From Microbotryum violaceum (lineage: Eukaryota), in NCBI GenBank assembly GCA_001244265.2, contig CDLV01000004.1:930001-994000 (forward strand): 64,000 nucleotides of DNA. Reading direction: 5' to 3'. Each line of letters begins with the position of its first letter. Within the stretch, counting starts at the first letter, position 1. The translations under genes were made by a program, and so were the position numbers. The notes below the pieces were generated by a model. The model searched no databases, had not been told where the DNA came from, and saw only the letters and a list, made by a program, of their open reading frames with translations. Positions 3,316 through 52,009 of this stretch are shown in pieces.

Positions 3316-3448
3316 TGTAAGGCCCGTGCGCCTGGGCCTTATGAGAAGAGAGCGCGCGCCTGGACACTCTTAGTCTCCCCTCAGCGACTAACACGAGTGT
3401 CCAGGTGAGCGTATGGTGGATCAAAAGTCATAGTCATTGTAGCGACTA

Positions 3449-8028
<4,580 letters not shown>

Positions 8029-8106
8029 TAGTCTCCCCTCAGCGACTAACACGAGTGTCCAGGTGAGCCTATGGTGGATCAGAAGTCATAGTCATTGTAG
8101 CGACTA

Positions 8107-8292
<186 letters not shown>

Positions 8293-9097: not shown

Positions 9098-9372
9098 TAT
9101 TGAAATAAACAGCGATGTGCTGAACAAGTTGGCGGCAGGGACGATCCAATGAGTTCGTAATCAAGTGAAGAAGAGGAGACAAAGACGCGACTAATACAAA
9201 TGTAAGGCTCGGTTGCCTTACGCTATTTAACTACCCTTCTGATTTCAATATGCATCTATTGAAATCGTCAGTCTTTTGGACCGTGTAACCTAGTCGTGAA
9301 GGGCCTGGGGTATTACAACAAAGTGGAGACGCGCGTAGTGCGGATTTAAGGCAAGAGTAATTTACTGCAACA
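9098..9372 (-). mobile_element. Copia solo LTR (Copia-2 family, intron-less form) interrupted by a second solo LTR
   Basis: Near-identical to LTRs at 32750-32916 and 37048-37214; TSD ACGGG (9093-9097 / 9373-9377); TG...TA termini on the minus strand. Confidence 0.92.
9201..9317 (+). mobile_element. 117-bp Gypsy-type solo LTR nested in the Copia solo LTR
   Basis: TGTAAGG...GGGGTATTACA termini resemble Gypsy-1 LTR ends; TSD ACAAA (9196-9200 / 9318-9322). Confidence 0.88.
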
Positions 9373-10180
9373 ACGGGGAGTTGCGTGGGATATCCTTTGG
9401 CGTACTTGTGACCGGTAAAAAGCCCCTGTCGGACCTCCCCCTAAAATCGACTGTAATGGGGCAGGTCGAGAATGTTCTCAGGCCGGGTCCAAGTTGGAAC
9501 AGGCGGAATCACCCCGGCCTCCAGCACCCGCTCGCCCCCTGTGACTCCATCTTTCCAATGACTGCACACACACACACCCGTGTCCGCCCAATCATCAGAC
9601 GTTGGAGCACACAAAGCCAAACATATACATCACTACCTACATCCTGGGTGTGATCAACTGGTGGTGGATGAAGACCACCTGCGGCTTCGCCGCCGTTAGT
9701 AGGTTTGGCGTCTTGAATGCGATCGCTGCAGTGGCCGGGCCGGTGACTCGGAGGGTGAGAAAAGGGGAAGGAGTCAGGTCTCTGTCTTTCTTTGCACGGA
9801 TTCGACTTACATTCACTGCTTCCCAATTTCCATGCCGTTGCCCCATGTTCAGAAAAAGAAGGATCGCAACTTGGGCATGCCCTGAGTCGCAACTTTGCCT
9901 CGGACTCGGACGTCACGAGCAAGTGCTCCGGCCGCTGCCTTTCCGAAGGCAAGCTTGTGCTCGAGACTGAACACACAAAGTGTACCCCAAGTCAGCCTCT
10001 ATAATTGTACCCCGAGTCAGCGTCTTTAATAACATCTAGTAATAGGTGGGCTGGCCCTCTAGGTCGCTCCGCCGATGGACCACGCGAATCAGTGATTGCA
10101 GCACGCCATTTGGCATTCCTCGAATCAAACGTTGTAAGCCTGGGGACCAGGATGTCATTGGCTGTGCTTCGCTTAAAGAT

Positions 10181-17352: not shown

Positions 17353-17620
17353 TATGAGGAGCAGCGCAGTCAACGAACAAAGATGCCGAGTAGTAGGATT
17401 GGGAACTTTCATGATGTATTACACTAACCTACGAGGAGAAGCGAAGTGAGCAAACAAAGATGCCGAATAGAAAAGGATTGGGAACGTTAAGGAAAGAGAG
17501 AGAGAGAAAGCTGCGCCAGTCGCAGCTCGGGTATTCTAAGTCCAAGTTCAAAGAGGTCCGAGCGCGGCGCCAGGCGCAGGTGCAAAAGAACTAGCCAAGT
17601 GCTGGAAGCGAAAGGGGGCT
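17353..17620 (-). mobile_element. Diverged LTR of the Copia-3 family, intron-containing form (right boundary approximate)
   Basis: Reverse complement aligns to 51560-51778, including both copies of the duplicated block and the AG|GTTAGTGTAATACAT donor. No TSD found. Confidence 0.8.
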
Positions 17621-19108
17621 ACACCAGGTCCGTCAACGACTTCACTCATCTTGGCCAATCTCCATTCTGACCTTCGGGGACGTCTTTTGCCGGCAGCAGT
17701 CGGTCACGCGATCCCAATGGCGGTCGATGACGATAACGCCGATGATATGAATCGAGAATTTGTCGGAGAGGCGGACGAAAACGGCGACGAAGACGATCTC
17801 CAAGGAAACCTCAATGAAACCGCAGATGAAGAGGGAGAAAAGATGGTCGTAGACGAAGAGGAGATGCGCGGTCCGAAAGAGCTCGACGATCTGGAACTCG
17901 AATTGGGCTCGGAAGCGCAGGAGGAACATGATAGTGACAGAGATACCAGCGATACGGACTCCCATGCGGGTGGAGCGCGAAGAGATGAGAGATGAGAACG
18001 TTCTGAGAGGCGCGAGAGAGGAAGAGGATGTCCAAGGGGAGGCAGAAGAGCCCGAGCCCACTGAAGGTGAGACTGCCGCGCTTGAGGCTCATCTCGCCGA
18101 GCTTGGTGCCGAAGGTGACTCAAAGTCTTGCTGTGCTTCAAGTGGTCATATTTGACACGAACACGAGGGCTGATGCAGTAACTACCTCATACGGGACTTC
18201 AAAGTCGAACGCTTCCACCCCATGACCTTGCAAAGCTACAACTCTACATGTTCAAGCGGGACCATTCGCTTTCGAGGGACGCTTGGACTGACCTCCTCAC
18301 ATTGCTGCGCATCTACACCTTCCACAACGCCGACCTCAGCGACATTTCCGAGTAGAGAATGGTCCGAGCGATACGACATCTCACCGGCTTCAGAACTGTG
18401 GAGGTCGGGAAGTGCCCCAAAGGTTGCGTGTCCTATGGCGCCAAACGGCTCGAAGATCTTGAGGAGTGTCCAACGCCCGGGTGCCGCGAGAACCGGTTCA
18501 CGCTGGGGAAGAATGGCGAGAAGATTGAACGGTCAACGCAGCGTTTTATGACCCCGCCCCTTTTGTTGAAGTGCTTCGTGCACACCAGTAATCGGCCTTA
18601 CCCTCGCCAATGCCCAGCCGAGCGACGAGGTCGTCGACTTGCACAAGGCGTCAGGTGGCTCGGGCTCTTACCCGGTCGTGAGGCGATGGGTTGACGGCTT
18701 ACACGCACGGACGCTTTACGCAAACGGCGATCTCAAGCCGGATGATATCCCTCTTGCAACCTTCTCCGATGGAACCGAAGTGCTCGCGCACTCCAACGCC
18801 AATCGCAAGGTCAACGCCCACATCTCTGGGGTGATACCCATGACCCTGCCGCTCGAACTTCGTTGGAAGCTATCATCGCACTTTGTCATCTCCGTGAACG
18901 GCCCTCAGAAACCCAAAGACGAGCAGTCATTCCTCGAAACATTCTGTCAACAGCTTCACATCTTCGAAGGGGAGCGTACATCCTTTTCAGCCGCTCGGGA
19001 CAGGCACGTGCTTTGCAGAGACAGGATCGTGGTTTGCATAGCCGACACGCTGGAGCAAGCAGCCCTTGGAACCTTGTGGGAGCAAGAGGCCTCGCTTCGT
19101 GCTTGATC

Positions 19109-22100
19109 TGTTGAGGTAGATTACTCTTGCCTTAAATCTGCCTAGCGCGCGTCTCTATTTGTATTAGCCGCGCGGTCCAATCGCGTCTTTCCTTCTTCTT
19201 CTCCACTTGATTACGAACTCATTGGCTTGCCACTGCCGCCAACTCGTTCAGGTGTGTGAAGAACTCCTTTATTGCAATCTCACTTGATTACGAACTCATT
19301 GGCTTGCCACTGCCGCCAACTCGTTCAGCACATCGCTGTTCGATTTCTACAGGTTACGAGCCCAACGTAGCGGCCCAGCCAACTCGAGTCATCAAGTCAT
19401 CATGCCCGGTGATACGGACACTGTGGTATCAGGGGGAACAACCTCTATCGTCTATGTCAAACCCCGCGATATCGACCCGTCATGCCACCTGCGCAACGCG
19501 GGAGGCTGGTCGCAATGGATCAACGACGTCCGTGGAGCTCTCGGGGGCGACTATTGGAACTGCACGCTTGCGACGCCCATTCAGAAACCCAACGCGCGCA
19601 CCGACCTGGAGCACGCCAACTTCCAAGCGATCGCGCTCTTGAGGCGCTCGGTCTCCCTCAACATCAAGAAGCAGATCAAAGATGGATTCGATCACACTCC
19701 CACCGACGTCTTGAAGATGATCAAGAAAGCGGTCGCAGCAGGCACAGTCACCGACATCTTCATCAAGCTCCAAGCCCTGCTCGATGCGGGTCCGCCTCCC
19801 TCCGGTGTCGACGCGTTCGAGAAGTACCAAGCCAACACCATTGAGCTGTTTAACACTCTTTCGGGATACAACCTTACCTTTGACCAGGTCATCTCGATAC
19901 GCTTGATCCACTTTGGCAAGGACCTCTACAAGGAGTACTATACTCAAGCGCTCCGTCAAGACCTCGACAAGCTCCCTGATCCGATTGAAGCGCTTCAAAC
20001 GCTTCAGACTCAAGCTGAATCCACGCCGGCACACAAGCCCGTGGCGATGGTAGCTAGCTTGACCGCGACGGACAGATCTTCATCGACTCCGTCAGCTCCG
20101 TGCCGACACTGTGGAGGTCCTCACTGGAATCGAAAATGCCCCGTCAAGGACAAGAAGTCCAAGGCCTCCTCCGCGCCGTCCGCATCACTCGCCGCTGCTC
20201 CCGACATCTCGACGTTGGTAGACGGCCCGGTCCGCGGATACCTCACCGCAGCGATGTCCACATTGGCCAAACCTTCCCTCATCCTCGACAGCGGCGCGAC
20301 GCATCACATCGTCAACGATCGCGCTTGTTTCACCAACTTCCGCAAGTGCAAGCCTGCTCCGCTCGAGGGCATCACGGGCGAGGTGGTCAATTCGATCGAA
20401 GGCGTCGGTTCCGCTGTCGTTCGCTCCTTCGACGGCAGCATCGGTCAACTCCACCACGCGTTGTTCGTCCCCAGCGCGCCGGTCAGCCTCTTCTCCGCCA
20501 GCCGCGCCAACGCCGCGGGCTACGACATCCACCTTTCCCGAGGCAAAGCAACGGTCTCAGTCGACGGGTCGCTTTGCCACACCGGGGAGATCACGAACGG
20601 CTTGTACCACATGCATGCTTCCCTAGTCGACGTCACTACTCTCATCGAGCAACCGGGTGCGTCCCCACGTGCGTTCGCGGCCGTCCCCGTCTCCATCATG
20701 CACGGACGTTTCGCTCACCTTCACCCACGCGCTCTATGACAGCTGATCTCAACTGAGGCTGTGCTGGGAGTCAACATGGAGGTAGCATTGAACGCAGACT
20801 TGAAATGTGATACATGCCAGGCTGGGAAGATCACACATCACCCTTTCCCCACCGTCGCGTCGAATCGTTCAGCCCAGCCTCTTGATCGAGTCCACATGGA
20901 CCTTCTTGCGTTCGACGGCGCCGTGTCGTTAGGCGGCGCAAAATACGCCCTCGTCATTGTCGATGATTACACCCGATATCTCTGAGCAATTCCGATGTCG
21001 CACAAGTCCGATACCTTTGCGGCCTTCAAGTCGTGGCTTGCAAAGGTCGAGCGCTCCTCGTCAAGAAAACTCCTGGCAGTCCGCTCCGACAACGGTGGTG
21101 AATTCTTGTCGAACGAGTTCTCGAGCTTCCTGGAAGAACAAGGCATCACTCGTCAGCTTTCGATTCCCGATGCCCCTCAGCAAAACGGGGTTGCCGAACG
21201 CGCAAATCGCTCGATCACCGAGGGTGTCCGATCAATGCTCCACCAGTCGGGTCTATCTCACGCTTTGTGGGCCGAGGCATTGGCGACATATGTCTACGTC
21301 AAAAATCGCTCACCACACTCGGCAAATTCAGGCGTCACACCACACACGCGTTGGCACGGATCAAAGCCGTCAGCCGGCCATCTCCGCGTATTCGGCTGCA
21401 GAGCGTGGAAGGCAGCTACCACCAAAGCGCGCAGCAAACTCGATCCGCGGGGCATTCCACTCGTATTCGTCGGCTACGATCTCGAATCCAAGGGATACCG
21501 ACTGTTTGACCCCGCTACCAGACAAGTTTTCAAATCGCGCAGCGTCACATTCTTCGAGGACGAGTTCCCAGCCAGGCGGGAGGGCATCACAGCAGCTCAC
21601 GCGCCCGTCGCAGGCAACGACGACGACGACAACGACGACGATGACGAAGTCGTTGTACTCCCTGACCAGCATGCCAATCAGGCACCCCCGACCAAGCGGA
21701 GCTTCCGGCTGCTTTACGTTTCGACGCACCGGGGCCCGCGTGGCAGCCACCCGTGGGTTCGCGCCCGCGCAACCCCCCAGCTCGTTACGGCGCCCTAGCA
21801 TCTTTGCGCTCGACCCCTTCTGCCTTCGCATTCTCTCTAGGCAAGGAGGTAACCGAACTTGTTGCTGATCTCGAAGCGGCGGGCATTGACACCTCGACAG
21901 CGAATCGACCGCTCTCGGAACCAGAGGACCCGTTCTCGCTCCCGAGCAGTGATCCCACCACGTGGAATGAGGCCATGCGCCATCCTCACGCCGCGGCATA
22001 GAAAGCGGGAGCCATTGAGGAATTCCGCTCGATGAAAGACGATCTCAAGGTGTTCAGCGTCGTCGGACTATCCTCCGTGCCCAAAGGAGCTACGATCTTA

Positions 22101-23685
22101 CCAAGTCGTCACGTCTTTCGAACCAAACGCGACAAAGCCAGGATGATGGTTTCACTGAAGAACCGCATTGTTGCACAGGGCTGCGCACAAGGCCCAAACA
22201 GCTTCAACAACACCTTCTCACCCACGGCTAAGTACACCTCCATCCGCACGCTCATCGCGCACTCGGCCTCGAAGGGCCACCACATCATTCAAGCCGACGT
22301 TGACAAGGCCTATCTTCACGGTGTGCTGGAGGAGGAGATCTACATGCGGGTTCCAACTGGCATCGAAGGCTACAAAGGCAAATGCCTCCGCCTTCATCGA
22401 TCGATCTACGGTCTCAAGCAGGCAGGTCGAGTGTGGAACGACACGATCAACGCCACGCTCGCGAGTCTCGGCTATCGTCGCCTCGCCTGCAACGAATGCA
22501 TCTATCGTCATGAGGACGCTGGGGGTGATCACTACATTGCACTCTACGTCGACGATCTACTCTTCTTTGGGCCGGATCTCGGGGAAATCGATCGAGTCCT
22601 TGACCAACTCGACACCCTCTACGGAGTCAAACGCCTCGGCCCGGCCGAATGGGTACTCGGGGTTCAGGTCGTACGACACGACGATGGCGGGATCTCCCTT
22701 CTCCAGCGTCAATACCTCCTTGACGTCTTGGATCGCTTCAACATGTCCGACTGCAACCCCTGCAAGTCACCCATGGAAGCCAACCTACAGCTTTCGCCGG
22801 AACCCGATACAGACTCCGCCGACAATGCCATCTACCGTTCCATGATCGGCTCACTCATGTACGCTGTTGTTGCCACTCGCCCTGATCTAGCCCACTCCGT
22901 CGGATATCTGTCACGTTTCGTCGGCAAGGCTGGCGACACTCACCTCGAGGCGGCCAAGCGCGTCCTTCGTTACATCAAAGGATCGCTCGATCTTGGCATA
23001 CACTACACGCGCACCAGTGCGCCTCTGCTGGGGTACGAGGGGTACTCTGACTCGGACTGGGGATCGGACATACAGACGTCGAGGTCCACTATGGGTTACT
23101 TGTTCAAACTGGCGGGTGGGGCCATCTCATGGTCATCTCGTCTCCAACCTCGCGTAGCTTGTTCATCCACGGAAGCGGAGTACCTGGGCCTCTCGCATGC
23201 AGCCAAGGAGGCTGTCTTCCTTCGCTCGCTCCTCACCGAACTCGGTCTCGATACATCGTCCCCTTTACGTCTTCTCGGGGATAACCAGGGAGCTATAGCG
23301 CTCACCCAGAATCCGGTCTTCCACGCTCGCACCAAACATTTGCGCATGTTGGAGCATTTCGTTCGGGAGCATGTTCGGAATGGAGAGATCTCGGTCACCT
23401 ACATCCCAACCCACAATATGGTTGCCGACATTTTCACCAAGCCGCTGCCGCGAGTAGTCTTCCAGCGTCATTGTGACGCCATCGGTCTGCGCCGCATTTC
23501 AGGCCAAGAGCAAGGGGGGTGTTGAGGTAGATTACTCTTGCCTTAAATCTGCCTAGCGCGCGTCTCTATTTGTATTAGCCGCGCGGTCCAATCGCGTCTT
23601 TCCTTCTTCTTCTCCACTTGATTACGAACTCATTGGCTTGCCACTGCCGCCAACTCGTTCAGCACATCGCTGTTCGATTTCTACA
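19109..23685 (+). mobile_element. Ty1/Copia LTR retrotransposon (Copia-1)
   Basis: 5' LTR 19109-19351 (243 bp), 3' LTR 23520-23685 (166 bp); TSD TGATC; PBS GGTTACGAGCCC; G-rich PPT. Confidence 0.97.
19402..23525 (+). pseudogene. Copia-1 gag-PR-IN-RT-RNase H polyprotein with nonsense codons and a frameshift
   Basis: CRHCGGPHWNRKC knuckle, ILDSGATHH protease, RSDNGGEF/PQQNGVAER integrase, YGLKQAGR and YVDD RT, YSDSDW RNase H. In-frame stops at ~20737, 20983, 21999; frameshift ~21690. Confidence 0.92.
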
Positions 23686-32749: not shown

Positions 32750-35700
32750 TATTGAAACTGAACAGCAATGTGCTGAACGAGTTGGCGGCAGGGACGAGCC
32801 AATGAGTTTGTAATCAAGTGAAGAAGAGGAGACAAAGACGCGAATCGCGCGCGCAACTAATATAAAGTGCAGACGCACGTAGTGCGGATTTAAGGCAAGA
32901 GTAATTTACTTCAACACCCCCCCTTGCTCTTGGCCTGAAACTTGCTGAAGGCCAATAGCGTCGCAATGACGCTGGAAAATTGCTCGAGGCAGCGGCTTGG
33001 TGAAGATATCGGCCACCATGTCATGGGTAGGGATGTAGGTGACCGAGATCTCTCCATTTCGAACGTGCTCCCAAACAAAGTGCTCGAAAAATGCGAAGGT
33101 GTTTGGTGCGAGCATGGAAGACCGGGTTCTGGGTGAGCGCGATAGCGCCTTGATTGTCTCCAAGCAGACAAAGGGGCGACAATGTGTCAAGGCCGAGCTC
33201 GGTGAGGAGCAAGCGAAGGAAGACTGCCTCCTTGGCAGCGTGCAAAAGAACCAGATACCTGGCTTCCGTAGACAAACACGCCACTCAGGGTTGGAGACGG
33301 GATGACCACAATATTGCGCCACCAGCCAGTTTGAACAAGTAGCCCATCGTTGACCTTGACGTGTTCACGTCGGATCCCCAGTCCGAGTCAGAATACCCCT
33401 TGTATCCCAGCAAGGGTTTGTTGTTAGCCATGTAATGGATGCCCAGATTGAGCGAGCCTTTGATGTACCGAAGGACGCGTTTGACGGCCTCAAGATGCGC
33501 TGCCCCCGCTTTTCCAACAAACCAAGAGAGATACCCCACAGCGTGTGCAAGATCGGGTCGGGTGGCAACAACGGCGTACATGAGGGAGCCAATCATAGAA
33601 TGATACATCGAGTTGTTGGCTTCATCGGGGTCGATCTTGGGCAACAACTGGAGGTTGGCCTCCATTGGCGATTTGCAGGGATTGCAATCGGACATGCCGA
33701 AACGAGCCAACACGTCAACAAGGTATTGGCACTGCAGGAGGGTGATCCCGCCATCATCATGCCGGATGACCTGAACTCCTAGAATCCAGTCAGCCGGGCC
33801 GAGACGTTTTATGCCATAAAGGGTGTCGAGTTGATCCAGGACTTGATCAATCTCCCCAAGGTCGGGACCAAAGAAGAGGAGGTCATCTACGTAGAGCGCG
33901 ATGTAGTGATCACCCAAAACGTCGGCGCACCTATAAATGCATTCATTGCAGGCGAGACGGCGGTAGCCGAGATTTGCTAGAGTGGCGTTGATCGTGTCGT
34001 TCCAGACTTGACCGGCTTGCTTGAGCCCGTAGATGGAACAGTGAAGACGGAGGCACTTGCCGTCATAGCCTTCAATGCCAGTGGGGATGCGCATGTAGAT
34101 CTTTTCCTCCAGGAGGCCGTTGAGGTAGGCCTTGTCCACGTCGGCTTGTATGATGTGGTGGCCCCTGGAGGCTGCGTGCGCAACGAGAGCGCAAATGGAG
34201 GTGAACTTCGCCGTTGGTGCAAACATCTTGTCAAAATCACCTGCCTGCTGTGCGCATCCCTGAGCTACAATGCGGCTCTTTAACAACACCATTTTGCCCA
34301 CCTTATCGCGTTTGGTTCAAAACACGTGGCAACTTGGCAAGATAGTGGCTGCCCTGGGAACGGAGGCAAGGTCGACCACACTGAACACCTTGAAGTCATC
34401 CTTCATCAAGCGGAACTCCTCAATGGCACCAGCTTTCCAACCTTCCGCATGAGGGTGGCACATGGCTTCCTTCCAAGTACTGGGATCACTGGTGGGAAGC
34501 ATGAAAGGATCTTTGGGCTCAGAGAGAGGACGGTCCGCCTTAGAGACATCAATGTCGGCCTCCACAAGATTGGCAACCAGCGCAACAACCTCGTTGCCGA
34601 GTGAGAATGCAAAGGCAGAAGGCGTCGAGCGCAAGGATGCGAGGGCTCCGTACCGAGCCGGCGGATTGCGTGCACGTGGGCCTGCGGGTGGCTGCCAGGC
34701 CGGGCCAGGGGTGTCGAAATGCAAGGCAGCCGGTGGGTCAACGTGCTCGGGGGAATAATGATGACCCCGCTGTCGTTGTCCCCCGCGGCCGGAAGCGGGG
34801 GTGCTCGGATACCCGTTGCTCGAGCAGGGAAGTTGTCCTCAAAGAATGTGACGCTGCGGGACTTGAAGACCTGTCTCGTGTTGGGGTCCAGCAGTCTGTA
34901 CCCCTTGGACTCGAGGTTGTAGCCAACGAAGACGAGTGGGATGCCTCGCGGATCAAGCTTGCTGCGCAGCTTGGTGGTAGCGGCCTTCCACGCTCAACAG
35001 CCGAACACGCGTAGATGGCCAGCTGAAGGTTTGGAACCATACCAATGTGTGTGAGGTGTGGTGCCCGAGTTTGCAGAGTGCAGCAAGCGATTTTTGACGT
35101 AGACGTACATTGCCAATGCCTTGGCCCACAAAGCGTGAGGTAGGCCCGACTGGTGGAGCATTGAGCGGACACCCTTGGTGATCAAACGATTCACACGTTC
35201 GGCAACTCCATTCTGTTGAGGCATGTCAGGAATAGAGAGCTGACGAGTAATGCCTTGCTCCTCCAGGAATCTGGAGAACTCATTCGACATGAATTTGCCC
35301 CCATTATCCGAGCGGACAGCAAGGACTTTGCGTGACGTGGAGTGCTCCACCTTCGCAAGCCAGGATTTGAAGGCCGCAAAGGTGTCGGACTTGTGACATT
35401 GGAATCACCCACAAATACCGAGAATGGTTGTCCACGATGACAAGAGCGTATCTCACACCCCCTAATGACACGGCACCGTCGAACGCAAGGAGGTCCATGT
35501 GTACTCGTTCGAGCAGCTGAGCAGAGCGATTCAATGCGACGGCAGGGAACGGGTGATGCGTAATTTTGCCAGCTTGGCAAGTGTCACATTTCAAATCCTC
35601 GTTTGAATCTACCTCCATGCTGACTCCCAACACGGCTTCAGTCGAAATCAACTGTCGGAGGGCGCGTGGGTGGAGGTGAGTGAAGCATCCGTGCAAGACC

Positions 35701-37214
35701 AACATGGGAACGGCCACGAGCACACGCGGGAACGCACCCGCTTGATGAACGAGAGCAGCGACGTCGACGAGCAAGGCCTGCATGTGGTAAAGTCTGTTCT
35801 TGAGCTCGCCAGTGTGACACACCGTGTCGGCGATGAAGACCGTTGCCTTGGCCCGAGTCAGACGGATGTCGTAACCCCAATGTTGGCACGACTGGCGGAG
35901 AACAGGTTGACCGGAGCGGTGGGCACGAACAAGGCGTCGTTGAGTTGGCCAATGCTGCCGTCGAAGGAACGAACGAGGGCGGAGCCGACGCCTTCGATGG
36001 AGTTGACAACTTCACCAGTGATGCCTTCGAGCGGAGCTGGCTTGCACTTGCGGAAGGACGTGAAACATGCGCAATTGTTGACAATGTGGTGCGTCGCCCC
36101 GCTGTCCAGGATGATGGAGGGCCTGGCCAAGCTGGACATCGTGGCTGTGAGGTAGCCAAGCACAGGACTGTCAACCAGCGTCGAGATATCAGGTGCAGTG
36201 ACGAGCGAGGCGGAAGGCGCTGAAGGAGCCTTCGTCTTCTTCCCCTTGGACCCAGCCTTGTTGTCCGGGCATTTGCGATTCCAGTGCGGACCTCCGCAGT
36301 GGTGGCACGGGGAGAAAGGAGTCGCGGTAGACTTGTCCGCTGTCGCAATCGGGCTTGCCACCATAGCGACGGGTTTGGGAGCTGGCGTCTGATCCGCCTG
36401 CGTGTGGAGCGACTGGAGGACCTCCGTCGGGCTCGGTAGCCTATCCAATCCTTGCCGAAGTGTTTGTGTAGTATTCACGGTACAGATCCTTGCCGAAGTG
36501 GACAAGGCGGAACGACACAATCTGCTCGAAAGTAAGCTCGTGTCCCGAGAGCGTGTTAAAAAGCTCAATGATCGTCGCTTGGTACTTTGCGAAGGCGTCC
36601 ATGCCGGTGGGAGGGGGTCCCACGTCGAGCAACGCTTGGAGACGGATGAGAATGTCAGCCACCGTGCCGGTACCGACCGCCTTCTTGATCATCTGTAAGA
36701 CTTCCGCAGGAGTGTGGTCATAACCATCCTTTATGTGTTTTCGGATGTCCGGTGAGACAGAACGCATCAGCAGCGCGACCGCTTGGAAATTGGCGTGATC
36801 GAGATCCGTGCGCGTGTTGGGTGATTGGACGGGCGTCGCGAGGGTGCAGTTCCAATAGTCGCCGCCAAGGGCGCCTCGCACGTCGTCGATCCATTGCGAC
36901 CAGCCCTCAGCGTTTCGCAGATGGCATGATGGGTCAACATCGCGTGGTTTGACGAGGACGATAGGGGTTGTTCCCCCTGTGACCATGAGAGGAGTGCTCA
37001 TGTCTTGATGACTCGAATTGGCTGGCCGCTCGGTTGGGCTCGTAACCTATTGAAACTGAACAGCGATGTGCTGAACGAGTTGGCGGCAGGGACGAGCCAA
37101 TGAGTTCGTAATCAAGTGAAGAAGAGGAGACAAAGACGCGAATCGCGCGCGCGACTAATATAAAGTGGAGACGCGCGTAGTGCGGATTTAAGGCAAGGGT
37201 AATTTACTTCAACA
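32750..37214 (-). mobile_element. Ty1/Copia LTR retrotransposon (Copia-2), related to Copia-1 and heavily mutated
   Basis: 167-bp LTRs at 32750-32916 and 37048-37214 (6 mismatches, TG...TA); TSD AATAT; PBS GGTTACGAGCCC; fragmented gag-pol closely similar to Copia-1. Confidence 0.96.
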
Positions 37215-39914: not shown

Positions 39915-40767
39915 ATGGCCATCCCCAACCAAATCGTCTTTGGCCTACTCCTGTTCGAGAGTCAGTCCCGGTGACCCGTCCTTTTCCTTTTCCTGCTCCT
40001 GCTCCCCACACGTCATCACCCCTTTGCCCTGGGTGCTCGAGCTGGGTTCCCGACTACGCCTCCCTCCTCCCGTCAGCCGCTCACCACGACTCCCATTATT
40101 CTTTCCACAGTTGCGACCTTTATCGTACTCATCGTGCCTCTTCCCTTCACGTCCGTCACTATCCTCCTTGCACCCTACTCCAAAATCTGACTCGATTCTT
40201 CTCGCTCCCAGTTGGCGCCGAGCGCTCTTCAAGGCCATTGCCGAGTCGCAGCTGGTCGCAAAGGCCCAGTACGCGCTCAAGATCACCTTCATCTTTGTCT
40301 TCCTCTTGTTCGCCGATGCGGTCAACCATATGCTCGTACGTGCCCGCGCTCTAGGTCGAAAGCTCCGCGACCGCAAGTGATTCCCACCATCTAATCGCGT
40401 TCCCCATCGGTCAACTTTTGTCCAGAAAACCCAACGCGAAGGTGTGCTGAACAAGCAACTCGGCCAACGTTCGGATCTACGCGGCGAATCCGATTACCGC
40501 TCGCGCAAATTCCTCTCCGAACGCAATTTCTATCTCCACGGGTTCACCCTCTTCCTTTCTCTGATCCTGTCGAGAACCTATTCGCTCGTTCTGGACCTCA
40601 TCAAAGCTCAGGAGGATTTGGCTCTGTTGAAGAAGGCGAACGCGGGTGGGGGGTTGATGGGCAGTGTCGGCGCCGGGGATGAGCAGTTGAGGAAGGAGTG
40701 CGAGGACTTGTCAAAGAGGTACGACGAGTTGGTCAAGAAGAGCCCGGTGGAGAAGAAGCAGGACTGA
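39915..40767 (+). CDS. BAP31: BAP31/Yet-family ER membrane protein, 4 exons (39915-39960, 40111-40150, 40212-40335, 40426-40767)
   Basis: Spliced product MAIPNQIVFGLLLFEIATFIVLIVPLPFTWRRALF...RKFLSERNFYLHGFTLFLSLIL...KKQD, with a KKxx ER-retrieval end; canonical GT-AG introns. Confidence 0.88.
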
Positions 40768-45362: not shown

Positions 45363-48300
45363 TCAGACCGCCAAAGCGGCATTCTCAGGCACGCTCAGCA
45401 TCGTCACGTCCTCCTTTAAAGGGTGGTGCTCGGCAATTTGACTCCCGCCCGTTCCAGCTTCCGAACCTTGCCTCGAGCACAGCTCCGGGTGACCGATCTT
45501 GCGCAGCTTCCCATCATAATCACTGTGAGAACGGATGTGAACGTTAGGAAAATGTTTCATCATAGAGAGTCCAATTCATAATGACTGACCCTTCTCTGTA
45601 ACCCTCGACGATTCGTTGAAGCAACTCGGAGGTCGAGACACCGTTTGTTCGGCGAGTGGGGAGGAATTGGCCTGTATGCTCGAAATCCACGTAAAAGAGT
45701 GACGAATCAGAAAGCAAAGCAAAAATGAAGTTAAGCGCCTCGTCTTTAAAGATCGATCGGTATCCCGCACGCACCCTTGGACTTGGCCAAAGCGTACACG
45801 TCATCAAAGTGGGCCGAGACGTAGGGCTCCTCGTCGTGAGCGACAAAGTCGATCTCGTGCTTCTTCATGAACGCCTCTTCGATGACCCACGGCGCGTCCT
45901 CAACGACCTCGTCAACCCACTTGCAATGTCGTACCGACTCGTAACGCTCTTGCGACGAAAGGACCGGTGAAGCCTTGTACTTGCGCACCATCTCGTCCGA
46001 GCAGACACCGACGAGCAAATGGACCGAAGGAAAAGCGAGCTTGCACTGCCGCAGTTGGAGCATGTGCCCGTCTATTCATTGAACGCGAGCATGAGCTACT
46101 CGAATCGAGTGTGGCGAAGACTGTGATTTTGACTCACAATGCAGAAGGTCGTATACACCATCGGCGTAGATGCGCACTGGCCTGTCTTGAGGGGGTGGAT
46201 TGATCGAGTAGGCGCGACCGTCCTGCCCGTCGATCGCAGCTTGGATATGTTGCTGTTGCGTTTGAAAGCCAAATCAATCACCTAGAGCTATAATCAGTAT
46301 TGAGACGTTCGTCGGACCAACCTGGATGTCTTGAGCGCTCATGTTACTCAGGAATCCTTGTGGGGCCGCGGCCCACGTCGGTGGCTCGTTCGACCCCGAA
46401 TGCCCAGGGTGACGCGAGGGTTGCACAGGTCGGGGTGAGCCATTCGGTGGTGAAGGAGGAGCTGAGTCGGTCGAGGTCGACGCATGCGAGGTGTGCTGCT
46501 GCAATTTCGAGACGATCGGGGCGCGGTAGAAGTGGTGCTGTCCCGAGCTTCGCACGGGGTTAGCAGTCGGTGCGGACGAAATATCACCAACGTCTGCGCG
46601 ACAAGAAGGCAATTCAAACCGATGACAGTTGGGTTGGTCAACAACGTACAGCACACATCGTCCAGCCGTCAACGAATGGGAAAGGAGACGGCCTTCAAAG
46701 CGTTGGGGACAATCACACCGGACCGCAGAAGCAACGGCTCAAACCCGAGTCGTCCCGTGGAACTTACGTCCTGCCGATCCTTCACTGTCGATGTGATTCT
46801 CAACCATGGTCTTTGAGGTGTTGTTGAGCTGGGGCGATGCGGTGTGGGTGCCGTTGGTCCTTCGCGTGACCCGCGCGCCGGGAACCCCTGGCGCCTCAAA
46901 CGACTCGCGCGTCGAAAGTGGTGTGTGCCGAGGCCGGCAGCGACGACGCGGCCTTGGTAATAGCTCCGAACGCGGATAGACTCGCATTGTCGTCCTCTTC
47001 GAGGCCGGACTGACCCGTCTCGTCGTTCGACTCAGCCGATGCTTCCCTTTGTATGTGCATAGGATCGCGAGGGCCAGCCACAGATCGTCAGCACGCCGAC
47101 TCGGTGATTCCCCCAAGCCGTGACGCTTGACGTGTCATCGTGTACACTACATTGCAGGGGCGCTCTCAACTCCAGCATACGGAGCTTGGGGGATGGGAAC
47201 TCGGGCGCGCTCGGACCTCTTTAGATTCTGACTTAGATTACCCGAGGCAGCGACTAGCGCGGCTCTCCCTCTTTTCCCTTAACGTTCCCTATCCTCTTCT
47301 ACTCGGCATCTTCGTTTGCTCACTGCGCTGCTCCTCATAGGTTATGAGCCCCAACCGACCTACCAGCTCAGAGCACGCAAGCTTCGACGAGCTTCCACCG
47401 CCTTCCACCGCGAGCGTTCACCCACCCGGCCAACCCCCGCTGGCCCGCGCCGTCATGTTGTCGTCTTCTGCTGCACCCACTGCAGAGGAAATCAAGGCTC
47501 TTATCCAACAAGCTCTCGACGTTCATGGTCGTGACACCCGCTCTTCCTCGTCCTCACCCCCTGACACCACCACCGAGACCGCCTCCGTCCCGCGTGTCCC
47601 CGCTGCCACGTCGATCACGTTCGAGGCGGTCAACCGACTGAAGGACGAAGCAACCTACTCGCGGTGGCATCGGCCACTAAAAGCGTTAGTGCCCACACCC
47701 ATCTTCTCGTATCTACAGACGGGAAACTTCCCCGCTGAATGGTCCATCGCAACTCAGGACCAGTGGAAGGACTACGTACGAAGCGTCCTCTTCAACTCGC
47801 TGCACCCATCCATTCAAGACGTCTACCAAGAAGACGACACCCCCTCTCAAGTCTACATCACTCTGAAGGAGCGCTACTCGCCTCGGGACGCCCAGGCGTA
47901 CGCCAAACTCATCCAGCGATTCTGGTCGATGCCCCAGATTCCGCTTTCCTCCAAGGACGATTTTGACAAGCACCTCCACCACGATCTCGATCTCGCCAGA
48001 GATTCGTCAAGGGAACCTCGACATTGAACAAGTGCTTGTCGCCGCTCGCCTCTTCAGTACCGACTTCAACGACGGTCTCGATCCTTGGCGCGAGACATTC
48101 CTTCAACTGCACCAGGGAAAGAACAGGCTTCCTTCCCTCGAGGAGACCATGAAATTGATGCGTGTTGCAGCGCACAACATTATCGACAAACGCCCTTCCG
48201 CGTATGTCTCGAACTCGGACAAGTCGGGGACCCCACCCGGCCCGTGCCCCGCTTGCAAGACTGGCCCCCTGCACTGGCTCCGTGAGTGCACCGATGAGGA

Positions 48301-51300
48301 TGCGAAGAAGCGATTCTTCTCCAGGCCCCGGCCCAATCGCTCCAAGCAAAACGCGAACGCCAAGCCGCCCGCTCAAGCTCGCCTCGCTGTTGCCTCGGAC
48401 GACCCCGGCGAGATCTCGGAGACGGCCCCCAGCGTCTCCTTCGCGGCTACTTCTTTCCTCTCGGTCACGTCGGACTCGCCTAGCCTCCTCCTCGACTCTG
48501 CCGCCAGTCACCACATGGTCAACGACTCAACTGCCTTCGTCGAGCTGCACAACACTCCTCGTGTGCAGATTGGCGGCGTAGGGGGGGGGGGGGGCTTTCT
48601 TCGCACGGCACGGGTGTCATCGAGCTCGTCGCTTCAACAGGCAATCGCATTCGCCTGTCCAACGTCTTCTTCGTTCCGGACTGTCCCGCGAATCTCATCT
48701 CCGTATTTGCGCTCATCAACGACGGCATCACGGCTTCATTCACCGAAGACGGACGAGTCTCGCTGGACAGGGGGGGTAAGCGCGTCTGCACGGGTTCGGC
48801 CAAATCCGACCGACTCTTCCACTTGGATGCCCATCTATGTACGCACACCGCTCTCATCGCCGCTCGTACCCCCAAGGTCTCACTGCTGACCCTTCACCGC
48901 CGCCTTGGTCACTGCTCTCTTCCCACCCTCAGGAAGCTGGCCAAAAGCGATCAGGTGAAGGGTATTGAGTGGACTTCTAGCGACGATGATTGGAATAATT
49001 TCAAATGTGATGCATGCATGGCTTCCAAGGCGCACAAGCTACCTTTCCCTATGTCCGAGTCTCACGCTGCACTTCCCCTCGGGCTGGTTCACTCGGACCT
49101 ACTCATGTTTCCTGAGCCCTCCGTGAGCGGCCGACGCTACCTGATCACCTTCATCGACGACTTCTCGCGCAAAGCTTGGGCCTTCCCACTCCTCCGCAAA
49201 AGCGACGCACTGGCTGCCTTTCAGTGCTGGAAGGCCGAAATCGAGAACGCCTCCGGGGCCAAGTTCAAAACACTGCGTTCCAACAACGGTGGCGAGTACA
49301 CTGCTTTCAACAGGTTTTGCGCCGAGCAAGGGATTCGTCGCGACAAGTCGGTGCCGTACACGCCCGAACAGAACGGGCGCGCCGAGCGACTTAATCGATC
49401 GATCGTAGAGGGCGTCTTGGCTCTGCTCCACGACTCCGGTCTCCCGGCCCACCTGTGGGAAGAAGCGACGCAGTACTATCTCGACTGCAAGAACCTCACG
49501 CCACACGCAGGGATCGACGGCGGTGTACCAGATGCGATCTGGCACGGCATTCCCCAAGACCTCTCACGACTGTGCACGTTCGGCTGCCGCGCCTGGGCCA
49601 CCGTCCCACAGCATGAACGCACCAAACTAGAACCAAAGGGGATCCCACTGATCTTTGTGGGTTATGACCAACATGCCAAAGCGTATCGATTATACGATCC
49701 TGACACCCAGCGTCTTCGCATCAGTCGCAACGTCACGTTCGTGGAGACCGAGTTCCCTGCCGCCGCGCGACAAGTCTGCGAGCCCGAACCGCCCTCACTC
49801 GCCCCTACGACCGTGCTGCACCCCGTCCTGGCGCCAGCTTCGGTACTAGCCGTTCCTGTCACACCTCCAACTTCTACGCCGCCCACAACGCCTCACCCGA
49901 AGCCCCACTCGACATGCTCCCTTCTCGCGACGCCGACCCGGCCCATTGGCACCAAGCGATGCGATCTCCACACGCCGCGGAGTGGCAAACCGAAGCCATC
50001 GACGAGTTTACGTCGCTGCTGAACCAGTACAAGGTCTACGTCATTCTCGACCAAGCCGCCCTGCCCGACGGTGCCAAGCTGCTACGCTCCCACTTCGTCT
50101 TTCGCACCAAGCGTGATCAGTTCGGCAACGTCAAATCGCGGAAGGTTCGTCTCGTCGCTGACGGCAGCACAACGCCCGGGCCTCGATTTTCAGGAGCGTT
50201 ATTCCCCCGTTGTTCGCTTTACATCGATCCGAGCCCTCGTCGCGATCGCCGTCTTGCGCGGCTACAAGATCAAACAAGCTGACGTCAACAAGGCCTATCT
50301 GCACGGCAAGCTCGACCAGCCTCTACATGCAACCACCGCAAGGCATCGACTTGCCGGGTAAGATTCTCAAGCTCGAACGATCCATCTACGGGCTCAAGCA
50401 GGCTGGACGCATCTGGAACGACGAGATCGACTCGACCCTCCGTTCTGTCGGCTACAAGCCCACGGTCTCGGATCTCTGCGTCTACACGAAGCGACACGGC
50501 AACGATTGGCACTACATCGCGCTCTATGTCGACGACTTGCTCCTCATTGGCCCCTCAGACGACGAGATCGAACGAGTTCTGTCCACACTCGAGGACATGT
50601 ACGGAATCAAGCGACTTGGCGACGCGGAATACGTCCTTGGCATTGAACTCAAACGTAGCAATGACGGCTCCATTACCCTCTCTCAGGAGCGCTACCTACA
50701 GGACGTGCTCGAACGTTTTGACCTCGCTCTTGCCAAGCCGGCCAGCACACCGATGCAGAAGAATCTCCTCCTCGAGCTCGATCAATCCACACCTTCTGAC
50801 CAGGAGCGAACTCGCTATCTTCAGGCAATCGGCTCCCTGATGTACGCCGCGCTCGGCACTCTTCCCGATCTTGCCTACGCTGTCAGCTATCTCGCACGAT
50901 TTGCCAAGGAGCCCGGACCGACGCACTGGACTGCGATCAAACACGTTCTGCGCTACATTCAAGGAACAGTCTTGTACAGTCTTCGTTACACGCCTACTTC
51001 CGGTCCGCTGTACGGCTACTCCGACTCAAATTGGGGTGCATGCGTTCGGACATCCAAGTCGACGATGGGCTATGCATATTTTCTGGCTGGTGCAACGATC
51101 TCCTGGTGCTCGAAACGGTCGTCCCGCGTCGCTGATTCTACCACCGACGCTGAGTACATTGCCCTCTCCCAGTCTTCCAAAGAGGCTATTCACCTCCAGC
51201 AGCTCTTGGAGGAACTCGGCATTCCGAACTCGGGACCCACCTTGATCTACGGCGACAATCAAGGCGCGAATTCATTGACACGCAACCCGACATCGTTTTC

Positions 51301-52009
51301 AGGCACTCGTCACGTTCGCATCCGGGAGCACTTTGTGCGGGAGATGGTCAAAAAGGGTGAGATCAAGGTTGAATACATTGCCACAGCCGACATGGTCTCC
51401 GACATCCTCACCAAGGCCCTTGACCCCAAGCTCTTTGTACGGCACCGCGAAAGTCTAGGCCTCCGAATGCCTGGAGCCTGACAGCGAGGGGGGGTGTCAT
51501 CGTGTACACTACATTGCAGGGGCGCTCTCAACTCCAGCATACGGAGATTGGGGGATGGGAACTCGGGCGCGCGGACCTCTTTAGATTCTGACTTAGATTA
51601 CCCGAGGCAGCGACTAGCGCGGCTCTCCCTCTTTTCCCTTAACGTTCCCTATCCTCTTCTACTCGGCATCTTCGTTTGCTCACTGCGCTGCTCCTCATAG
51701 GTTAGTGTAATACATTTCGAACGTTCCCTATCCTCTTCTACTCGGCATCTTCGTTTGCTCACTGCGCTGCTCCTCATATGACGCGTGGCAGTCGTCGCCA
51801 CCGCGCCGCTGCCGGCGTGAAATGACGACGAGCCGCCGCGGAAACGTGCAAGCGAGCAACCGGCCCGACCCACCGGCTCCTCCCCGACCGTTGCCCGTCG
51901 TCGTAGCACTCACACTTGACTCTCCCTCGCCCAAAGGGTGGGAAGCGCGAGAACGTCTTCGCTTGGAGGCACCCGTGCTCGTCGTCGTCGTGTTGGCTGC
52001 CGAACTCAT
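45363..52009 (-). CDS. PCT1: Choline-phosphate cytidylyltransferase; first intron occupied by Copia-3; possibly non-functional
   Basis: [66 protein letters not shown]. Putative exon 1 (MSSAAN...GESS) lies at 52009-51914, beyond the Copia. Confidence 0.82.
47133..51778 (+). mobile_element. Ty1/Copia LTR retrotransposon (Copia-3), frameshifted
   Basis: 5' LTR 47133-47339 (207 bp), 3' LTR 51495-51778 (284 bp); TG...TA termini; [32 protein letters not shown] protease, integrase, YVDD RT, YSDSNW RNase H. Confidence 0.96.

What the first reader, a model, noticed from the sequence alone, without database searches (positions are those of the whole stretch)
51641..51783. Copia-3 LTR intron can only be spliced in a 5' LTR, because its acceptor G comes from the PBS
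The long LTR ends ...GCTCAC...CTCCTCATA. In a 5' LTR the next base is the G of the PBS (GGTTATGAGCCC), completing a TAG acceptor. In the 3' LTR the next base is host DNA (T here), so no acceptor exists. Splicing would yield exactly the short 5' LTR-PBS junction seen at 47281-47352. This is a built-in positional switch that spares the 3' intron copy (inference), and it is compatible with the non-canonical TG...TA termini.
Basis: partly seen in the sequence, partly recalled or inferred. Interest (0 to 1): 0.85.

Follow-up and report, generated by a model that had tools for sequence, protein, structure and literature searches.

The report
Repeat-bounded, intron-like unit in copia LTRs
A fungal-type copia retrotransposon has 79 extra bases in one of its two terminal repeats that look like a small intron, but the difference between its two ends is better explained by loss of one copy of a direct repeat than by splicing.

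Summary
Copia-3 (47133-51778, 5-bp target duplication) has a 207-nt 5' LTR and a 284-nt 3' LTR. The extra 79 nt are a 20-nt spacer plus a second exact copy of the last 59 LTR bases.

Splicing cannot produce a short 5' LTR beside a long 3' LTR, because both U5 regions of a new copy are copied from the RNA 5' end (textbook knowledge). Loss of one repeat unit between 64-nt direct repeats fits better. It could have happened in plus-strand cDNA synthesis or after integration. This copy also carries private point and indel mutations.

The long form is inherited: a diverged solo LTR at 17353-17643 and contigs of two other runs carry it.

A second copia family in the window has the same design, a 77-nt unit (GTGTGT..CAG) in its 5' LTR only. 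The chance of such a splice-like register is under 1%. Splice competence therefore stays open, at about one in three. No RNA data or further family copies could be obtained.

The parts
47128..47132 (.). Left copy of the 5-bp target-site duplication TGACG
   Evidence: Sequence reading. One X17 contig joins 47120 to 51779, skipping 4658 nt with TG..TA ends, as an empty site would.
47133..47339 (+). Copia-3 5' LTR, short form (207 nt, TG...TA), with a single 59-nt unit at 47281-47339
47340..47351 (+). Primer-binding site GGTTATGAGCCC. Its first G would complete a TAG after the LTR end.
   Evidence: The same 12-mer ends an oligo in a yeast initiator-tRNA paper. That it complements the initiator tRNA anticodon arm, as in copia/Ty5, is recalled.
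47352..51485 (+). Internal region with gag, protease barrel, integrase, RT (RVT_2) and RNase H, broken into at least 4 reading frames
   Evidence: Indels relative to contigs of other runs at 47997, 48581, 50169 and 50320.
51486..51494 (+). Polypurine tract GAGGGGGGG directly before the 3' LTR
51495..51778 (+). Copia-3 3' LTR, long form (284 nt)
51641..51699 (+). Repeat copy A1 (59 nt)
   Evidence: 100% identical to 47281-47339 and 51720-51778.
51700..51719 (+). 20-nt spacer GGTTAGTGTAATACATTTCG. Its first 5 nt equal the PBS start. A GTTAGT 5'-splice-site-like hexamer lies at 51701-51706.
   Evidence: no other source in the window. Covered by contigs in X17 and X18.
51720..51778 (+). Repeat copy A2 (59 nt), the LTR end. 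It contains CTCAC and ends ...CATA.
51779..51783 (.). Right copy of the target-site duplication TGACG. Its T stands where a 5' LTR has the PBS G.
17353..17643 (-). Diverged (about 83%) solo LTR of the same family, long form: A1 17430-17488, spacer 17410-17429, A2 17353-17409. It is followed by C, not by a PBS. Its left boundary is approximate.
   Evidence: No Copia-3-like coding sequence beside it.
19109..19351 (+). Copia-1 5' LTR, long form (243 nt): 48-nt repeat 19204-19251, 29-nt spacer 19252-19280, repeat 19281-19328. The intron-like 77-nt unit is 19252-19328 (GTGTGT..CAG).
23520..23685 (+). Copia-1 3' LTR, short form (166 nt), otherwise 100% identical to the 5' LTR. Target duplication TGATC.

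Best explanation
The 79 bases are one unit of a heritable repeat-spacer-repeat module (A1, 20-nt spacer, A2) at the U5 end of this copia family's LTR. The long LTR is the inherited form. This copy's 5' LTR lost one unit by homology-driven deletion between the two 64-nt direct repeats (59 nt plus GGTTA) that a long 5' LTR has next to its PBS. The deletion happened in one of two ways. Either reverse transcriptase switched template during plus-strand strong-stop synthesis, which shortens only the 5' LTR, or replication slippage or recombination removed the unit after integration. Splicing is not needed for this and cannot by itself make the two LTRs differ. Shown: the anatomy, the inheritance of the long form, and the register ambiguity. 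Inferred: the deletion mechanism and its timing. Whether the unit is also removed as an intron from transcripts of long 5' LTRs is a separate, open question (my estimate is about 0.35).
For: (1) Exact 59-nt repeats flank the spacer, and all 65 of 65 registers of a 79-nt loss reproduce the observed junction. (2) The long form is old and inherited. The solo LTR at 17353-17643, about 83% identical, has the same A1-spacer-A2 layout with a 20-nt spacer 17 of 20 identical. Contigs covering the spacer exist in runs X17 and X18. (3) The copy has had time and opportunity to decay. The 5' LTR has a private C at 47185 where 3 of 3 covering runs and its own 3' LTR have A. The 3' LTR has a 2-nt indel. The coding region has 4 small indels relative to contigs of other runs, at the places where the reading frame breaks. 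(4) Reverse transcriptases delete direct repeats and the sequence between them precisely and often. A 110-bp repeat is deleted at 41% per cycle, rates are similar in RNA- and DNA-templated synthesis, and 50-75-bp LTR repeats vary in copy number (review PMC3187697, passages read). (5) Textbook replication logic says both U5 regions come from the RNA 5' end, so RNA-level events cannot give unequal LTRs. (6) The same kind of module in Copia-1 is also present in only one LTR, there the 5' one. This shows the modules are unstable in either direction.
Against: Both modules have a single GT..AG register with a GTNNGT donor, which pure repeat deletion does not predict (chance 0.66-0.85% each). A module that is deleted easily should not survive long, yet it persisted through the divergence of the 17k and 51k copies. 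In the solo LTR, A1 and A2 share 2 identical substitutions relative to the 51k copies (chance 0.026). This points to some process that keeps or rebuilds the module. Only 3 LTRs of this family and 5 of the other could be examined. The deletion step itself is inferred, not observed.
Confidence: 0.6

Rival explanations
1. First reader's model. The 79 nt are a true spliceosomal intron of the LTR that can be removed only at the 5' end, where the PBS G completes the TAG acceptor. The short 5' LTR is the imprint of that splicing, and the 3' copy is spared.
For: The donor is AG|GTTAGT, a CTCAC lies 18 nt before the end, the acceptor is TAG|G, and the length of 79 nt is typical of small fungal introns. 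Host introns at 39961-40110 and 40151-40211 use GTCAGT and GTCCGT, and one has GCTCAC. Copia-1 independently has a 77-nt unit GTGTGT..CAG. The donor hexamer is intact in the diverged solo LTR.
Against: A cDNA made from a spliced RNA has the short U5 in both LTRs (textbook knowledge, and the basis of intron-marked retrotransposition assays, recalled). The short/long pair therefore still needs a DNA-level event. An intron does not need 59-nt exon/intron repeats. The spacer is no better conserved than the rest of the LTR (17 of 20 versus about 83%). The PBS-G rule does not hold for Copia-1, whose acceptor is internal. No long 5' LTR of this family was seen (0 of 1). There is no RNA evidence.
Confidence: 0.2
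2. The long LTR is the new state. The extra 79 nt would be a scar of aberrant strand transfer during this element's own reverse transcription, made of a duplicated U5 end, a few PBS bases and filler. The 3' LTR gained them rather than the 5' LTR losing them.
For: The spacer begins with five PBS bases directly after a complete U5 end, as expected for a plus-strand strong-stop end. Twelve spacer bases align to bases 8-21 of the same LTR with two 1-nt gaps (49 of 5000 shuffles score as well against the first 40 nt, 229 of 5000 against the whole LTR). For Copia-1, 4 of 5 family LTRs are short and its own LTRs are otherwise identical, so a de novo gain is plausible there.
Against: For Copia-3 the same module, with the same spacer length and 17 of 20 identity, sits in a solo LTR that has diverged by about 17%, and in contigs of two other runs. 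The module therefore predates this insertion. A de novo scar does not predict GT..AG with GTNNGT.
Confidence: 0.07
3. Assembly artefact. One repeat unit was collapsed in the 5' LTR or duplicated in the 3' LTR by the assembler.
For: The copy contains a long G run at about 48578-48593 and several small indels relative to other runs, which could partly be sequencing error.
Against: The spacer is unique sequence, not a slip product. It is found independently in X17 and X18 contigs and in the diverged solo LTR. The target duplication and LTR ends are exact.
Confidence: 0.03

Closest known systems
Ty1/copia (Pseudoviridae) LTR retrotransposons primed by the anticodon arm of initiator tRNA-Met (Drosophila copia, yeast Ty5; recalled)
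   Same: LTRs, 5-bp target duplication, PBS GGTTATGAGCCC directly after the LTR, polypurine tract, integrase before RVT_2 reverse transcriptase.
   Different: The LTR carries a repeat-spacer-repeat module at its U5 end. The termini are TG...TA. The two LTRs of one copy differ by exactly one module unit.
Direct-repeat deletion by reverse-transcriptase template switching in retroviruses and vectors (review PMC3187697, passages read)
   Same: Precise loss of one repeat plus the intervening sequence. It occurs in both RNA- and DNA-templated synthesis. Copy number of 50-75-bp LTR repeats is known to vary.
   Different: Here the repeats are 59-64 nt and lie at the U5/PBS border of a fungal-type copia element. 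The module has nevertheless been inherited over considerable divergence.
Intron loss on retrotransposition (intron-marked Ty1 experiments; recalled, not read here)
   Same: If the unit is spliced, progeny lose it precisely.
   Different: Those experiments predict loss from both LTRs when the intron lies in R or U5. Here only one LTR lacks it.
Splice donors inside the R region of retroviral LTRs (HTLV-1/BLV, foamy viruses; recalled)
   Same: A donor is present in both LTR copies but usable only in the 5' leader, because the 3' copy has no acceptor before the RNA end.
   Different: In those viruses the acceptor lies far downstream, in the body of the genome. Here donor and acceptor would both lie within or at the edge of the LTR, and the intron end repeats the exon end.
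LTR-contained introns in maize LTR retrotransposons (bioRxiv 10.64898/2026.05.08.723830, passages read)
   Same: Introns lying within LTRs. The authors call it, to their knowledge, the first such evidence.
   Different: The maize introns average 1303 bp in very long LTRs and give non-coding LTR transcripts. They are shown by long-read RNA. Here the unit is 77-79 nt, bounded by repeats, next to the PBS, and has no RNA evidence.
Intron creation by tandem duplication of an AGGT-containing segment (recalled)
   Same: The duplicated sequence supplies donor and acceptor, so splicing restores the original RNA.
   Different: Here the duplicates are separated by unrelated spacer DNA, and the AGGT is made by the LTR end plus the PBS start.

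Membership tests
Ty1/copia LTR retrotransposon | Two direct long terminal repeats flanked by a 5-bp target-site duplication | tested here: met
   LTRs at 47133-47339 and 51495-51778. TGACG on both sides. One contig in X17 joins the flanks.
Ty1/copia LTR retrotransposon | PBS directly after the 5' LTR and polypurine tract directly before the 3' LTR | tested here: met
   GGTTATGAGCCC at 47340 and GAGGGGGGG at 51486-51494. The tRNA match rests on an oligo in a yeast initiator-tRNA paper and on recall. No tRNA gene lies in the window.
Ty1/copia LTR retrotransposon | Pol domain order with integrase before reverse transcriptase, and an RVT_2-type RT | tested here: met
   gag_pre-integrs, rve and SH3_retrovirus in 48484-50019. 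RVT_2 in 50162-51478.
Spliceosomal intron | GT..AG boundaries with a fungal-type donor (GTNNGT) and a YAG acceptor | tested here: met
   1 of 65 registers is GTTAGT..TAG, and only with the PBS G. In Copia-1, 1 of 49 registers is GTGTGT..CAG. Chance is 0.85% and 0.66%.
Spliceosomal intron | Branch-site motif at a suitable distance from the acceptor | tested here: inconclusive
   CTCAC lies 18 nt before the end. It fits only the minor CTHAH class reported in Fusarium. The same GCTCAC occurs in one inferred host intron. The solo LTR has TTGAC there.
Spliceosomal intron | Located in a transcribed context with both splice sites (a long 5' LTR next to a PBS) | tested here: not met
   For Copia-3, 0 of 1 5' LTRs in the window is long. 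Contigs built from 31-letter words cannot link spacer, repeat and PBS. Copia-1 does have a long 5' LTR.
Spliceosomal intron | Removal seen in RNA | not testable with these tools
   No RNA holder was listed and only contigs could be laid. The spliced junction is identical to the genomic short junction, so ordinary RNA reads could not tell them apart.
Product of direct-repeat deletion | Long and short forms differ by exactly one repeat plus the intervening sequence, with the breakpoint anywhere inside the repeat | tested here: met
   65 of 65 registers reproduce the short junction. The repeats are 100% identical.
Product of direct-repeat deletion | Timing of the event (during plus-strand cDNA synthesis or after integration) | not testable with these tools
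   It needs copies of the same insertion in other strains read with long reads, or a single-cycle transposition assay.

The most novel reading that the evidence does not exclude
The modules are self-renewing LTR introns. The transcript would start at the first repeat copy, which in both families follows a CT-rich tract, and the spacer plus the second copy would be spliced out of the 5' leader. The 3' LTR copy escapes splicing because the RNA ends, or lacks the acceptor G, before a 3' splice site is complete. The minus-strand strong-stop cDNA of the spliced leader is the complement of the repeat. It can land on either repeat copy at the RNA 3' end. Landing on the distal copy rebuilds the intron in both new LTRs, and landing on the proximal copy gives short LTRs. 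This would explain four things: why an intron end repeats the exon end, why long and short LTRs coexist, why the two repeat copies evolve in concert, and why two copia families that share no detectable spacer homology have the same design.
Probability: 0.13. Interest if true: 0.85.

Novelty: new variant of a known kind. Interest (0 to 1): 0.45.

Why it matters
Retrotransposons normally cannot keep introns, because they copy themselves from processed RNA. A short intron placed in the LTR and rebuilt from the unspliceable 3' copy would be a new solution to that problem. It would be relevant in fungi, where introns promote expression and stalled splicing can trigger silencing (recalled). Even in the ordinary reading the case is useful. 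It shows that repeat-bounded U5 modules make the two LTRs of one copy unequal. That misleads LTR-identity dating and LTR boundary calling, and splice-like boundaries can be read into any repeat-mediated deletion.

Tried and rejected
- **More family copies.** A 16-nt spacer motif gave 82 metagenome and 28 prokaryote-genome loci. None of the 110 loci held had any blastn match to the element, so all are chance hits. A scan of viral contigs with the RT protein found no relative.
- **Sequencing runs.** Twenty holders were listed and none is on record as RNA. Four runs were laid, all as contigs.
- **Limits of the contigs.** They break at the 59-nt repeat and cannot link spacer, second repeat and PBS. 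Whether long 5' LTRs exist in those genomes stays open.
- **Gaps in cover.** X1 and X15 had no cover at the spacer. Depth figures were not used as copy numbers.
- **Origin of the spacers.** No other source lies in the window.
- **Copia-3 spacer against its own LTR start.** It aligns weakly (49 of 5000 and 229 of 5000 shuffles). I did not adopt an LTR-LTR junction origin.
- **Copia-1 spacer and cross-family comparison.** The Copia-1 spacer against its LTR is not significant (1377 of 5000). The spacers and the repeats of the two families are not detectably homologous (1243 and 963 of 5000).
- **Spacer conservation.** I first misread the solo-LTR spacer as having a non-homologous end. Re-alignment shows equal length and 17 of 20 identity, the same as the LTR average, so spacer conservation is no argument for function.
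- **Other blanks.** The protein Atlas gave no usable taxon. No tRNA gene lies in the window.
- **Literature.** Two searches found no report of an intron in a fungal LTR. Supplementary files were not consulted.

Full report
**Anatomy**

The finding lies at the 3' end of a Ty1/copia element on the + strand.
- The 5' LTR is 47133-47339.
- The PBS GGTTATGAGCCC starts at 47340.
- The polypurine tract GAGGGGGGG is at 51486-51494.
- The 3' LTR is 51495-51778.
- TGACG is duplicated at 47128-47132 and 51779-51783.

Pfam finds gag-pre-integrase, integrase core and the retroviral SH3-like domain in 48484-50019, and RVT_2 in 50162-51478. The coding region is split over at least four frames. One contig of run X17 (depth 3) joins 47120 to 51779, skipping 4658 nt with TG..TA ends. 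This is what an unoccupied site would look like.

**Observation**

A 59-nt unit is present three times at 100% identity: once at the end of the 5' LTR and twice in the 3' LTR. In the 3' LTR the two copies (A1 51641-51699, A2 51720-51778) are separated by 20 nt. The first five of those are the first five bases of the PBS.

The LTRs otherwise differ by one substitution and one 2-nt indel.

**The splice reading is not unique**

I built the hypothetical long 5' LTR plus PBS from window coordinates. A 79-nt loss reproduces the observed short junction in all 65 of 65 registers within the 64-nt repeat. Exactly one register is GT..AG, with GTTAGT at the start and TAG at the end. So 'splicing would yield exactly the short junction' is true, but it is equally true of any homology-driven deletion.

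The junction CATAG|GTTATG already exists as DNA at 47336-47345. RNA reads showing it would therefore not demonstrate splicing.

**Splicing cannot explain this copy**

In LTR-element replication, minus-strand strong-stop DNA copies R-U5 from the RNA 5' end and becomes the U5 of the 3' LTR. Plus-strand strong-stop DNA copies that and becomes the 5' LTR (textbook knowledge). Any RNA-level change in the leader therefore ends up in both LTRs or in neither. A spliced template gives short/short. I went through variants with the unit in U3, R or U5, with premature strand transfer and with co-packaged spliced and unspliced RNAs. All of them give equal LTRs (inference).

Unequal LTRs need an event in plus-strand DNA synthesis or after integration.
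- A template switch between the repeats during plus-strand strong-stop synthesis shortens only the 5' LTR, as seen here.
- A switch during final plus-strand synthesis across the 3' LTR, or a later genomic deletion, can shorten the 3' LTR.

Reverse transcriptases are known to delete direct repeats precisely and often (review PMC3187697, passages read):
- A 110-bp repeat is deleted at 41% per cycle.
- Rates are similar on RNA and DNA templates.
- 50-75-bp LTR repeats vary in copy number.

**The long form is inherited**

A second LTR of the family lies at 17353-17643 on the minus strand. It is about 83% identical and has no Copia-3 coding sequence beside it. It has the same A1, 20-nt spacer, A2 layout. 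The spacer is 17 of 20 identical, and the LTR is followed by C.

Contigs covering the spacer are present in runs X17 and X18. The short 5' LTR is therefore the derived state.

**This copy has decayed**
- The 5' LTR has a private C at 47185, where 3 of 3 covering runs and its own 3' LTR have A.
- The 3' LTR has a 2-nt indel.
- Four small indels relative to contigs of other runs sit where the frames break.

A slippage-type loss of one repeat unit fits this record.

**A second family has the same design**

While mapping repeats I found that Copia-1 (19109-23685, target duplication TGATC, PBS GGTTACGAGCCC) has a 243-nt 5' LTR and a 166-nt 3' LTR. They are 100% identical except for 77 nt present only in the 5' LTR. 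Those 77 nt are a 29-nt spacer plus a second exact copy of the preceding 48 nt.

Of 49 possible registers, one is GT..AG, with GTGTGT at the start and CAG at the end. Its acceptor lies 23 nt inside the LTR. Its relatives are short at this place: both LTRs of Copia-2 (32750-37214, minus strand) and a solo LTR at about 9103-9373. So 4 of 5 LTRs of that family are short.

This has two consequences.
- The acceptor-from-PBS idea is not general, and the long LTR can be at either end.
- Two families whose spacers and repeats show no detectable homology (1243 and 963 of 5000 shuffles score as well) share a repeat-spacer-repeat unit of intron size with a GTNNGT donor.

**How intron-like are the units**

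In random repeat-spacer-repeat constructs drawn from window DNA, a GTNNGT..YAG register appears in 0.85% (64+15 nt) and 0.66% (48+29 nt) of trials.

For Copia-3 this overstates the surprise. AGGT is given by the LTR end plus the PBS start, and the case was picked for looking like an intron. For Copia-1 it is an independent test.

Host introns inferred in the Bap31-like gene are frame-consistent: 39961-40110 (GTCAGT..CAG) and 40151-40211 (GTCCGT..CAG). They use the same donor class, and one contains GCTCAC. The candidate branch CTCAC belongs only to a minor class in Fusarium (PMC5677156, passages read).

**Concerted change of the two repeat copies**

In the solo LTR, A1 and A2 each differ from the 51k repeat at 7 positions. 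Two of these are the same substitution at the same site. The chance of two or more such coincidences is 0.026.

A module that is easily deleted, yet persists with its two halves changing together, suggests repeated template switching between the copies during replication. It may also suggest a way of rebuilding the module. That is the basis of the novel reading: a strong-stop cDNA of a spliced or repeat-deleted leader landing on the distal repeat at the RNA 3' end. It rests on small numbers and on untested positions of the RNA start and end.

**What could not be done**

No genome is held. The pattern scans gave only chance hits: 0 of 110 loci matched. There was no relative in viral contigs. 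No RNA holder was listed and only contigs were available, which cannot bridge the 59-nt repeat.

Two literature searches found no fungal LTR intron. A 2026 maize preprint reports much larger LTR-contained introns and calls them the first such evidence. Supplements were not consulted.

**Verdict**

The mechanism proposed for this copy is not supported. The best explanation is loss of one unit of an inherited, repeat-bounded U5 module (confidence 0.6). That the module is also a working intron remains possible, at about one in three. The recurrence in a second family is the part worth following up.

Noticed in passing
window 19109-23685 (5' LTR 19109-19351, 3' LTR 23520-23685): Copia-1 has otherwise 100% identical LTRs that differ by a 77-nt repeat-bounded, GT..AG-bounded unit present only in the 5' LTR. 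This mirrors the finding in a different family.
   Followed up: yes
window 9103-9373 (-): A solo LTR related to Copia-1/Copia-2 carries a separate insert of about 109 nt in its U3 part and lacks the 77-nt unit.
   Followed up: partly
window 19352-19363 and 37036-37047 (-): Copia-1 and Copia-2 have the PBS GGTTACGAGCCC, one base different from Copia-3's GGTTATGAGCCC. The change lies at the position that would pair with the middle anticodon base of initiator tRNA (pairing recalled, not tested).
   Followed up: no
window 3316-8197: A Ty3/gypsy chromovirus (RVP_2, RVT_1, RNase H, integrase, chromodomain) with 224-nt LTRs 98% identical. With three copia elements and two solo LTRs it makes the 64-kb window a retrotransposon cluster.
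   Followed up: partly
window 47997, 48581, 50169, 50320, and the LTR sites 47268 / 51628: The window's Copia-3 copy differs from contigs of 2-4 other runs by small indels, mostly 2 nt, some in short dinucleotide runs. It also has a long G run near 48578-48593. This is either a slippage-prone decay pattern or partly sequencing error.
   Followed up: partly
window 47120 / 51779 (run X17): One low-depth contig joins the two flanks with 2 other letters between them. The insertion site therefore seems to exist unoccupied, with slightly different flank sequence, in a run that also holds the element.
   Followed up: no
window 47262-47280 and 19188-19203: In both copia families the repeated unit begins directly after a CT-rich tract. 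This would fit a transcription start at the first base of the repeat (inference only).
   Followed up: no
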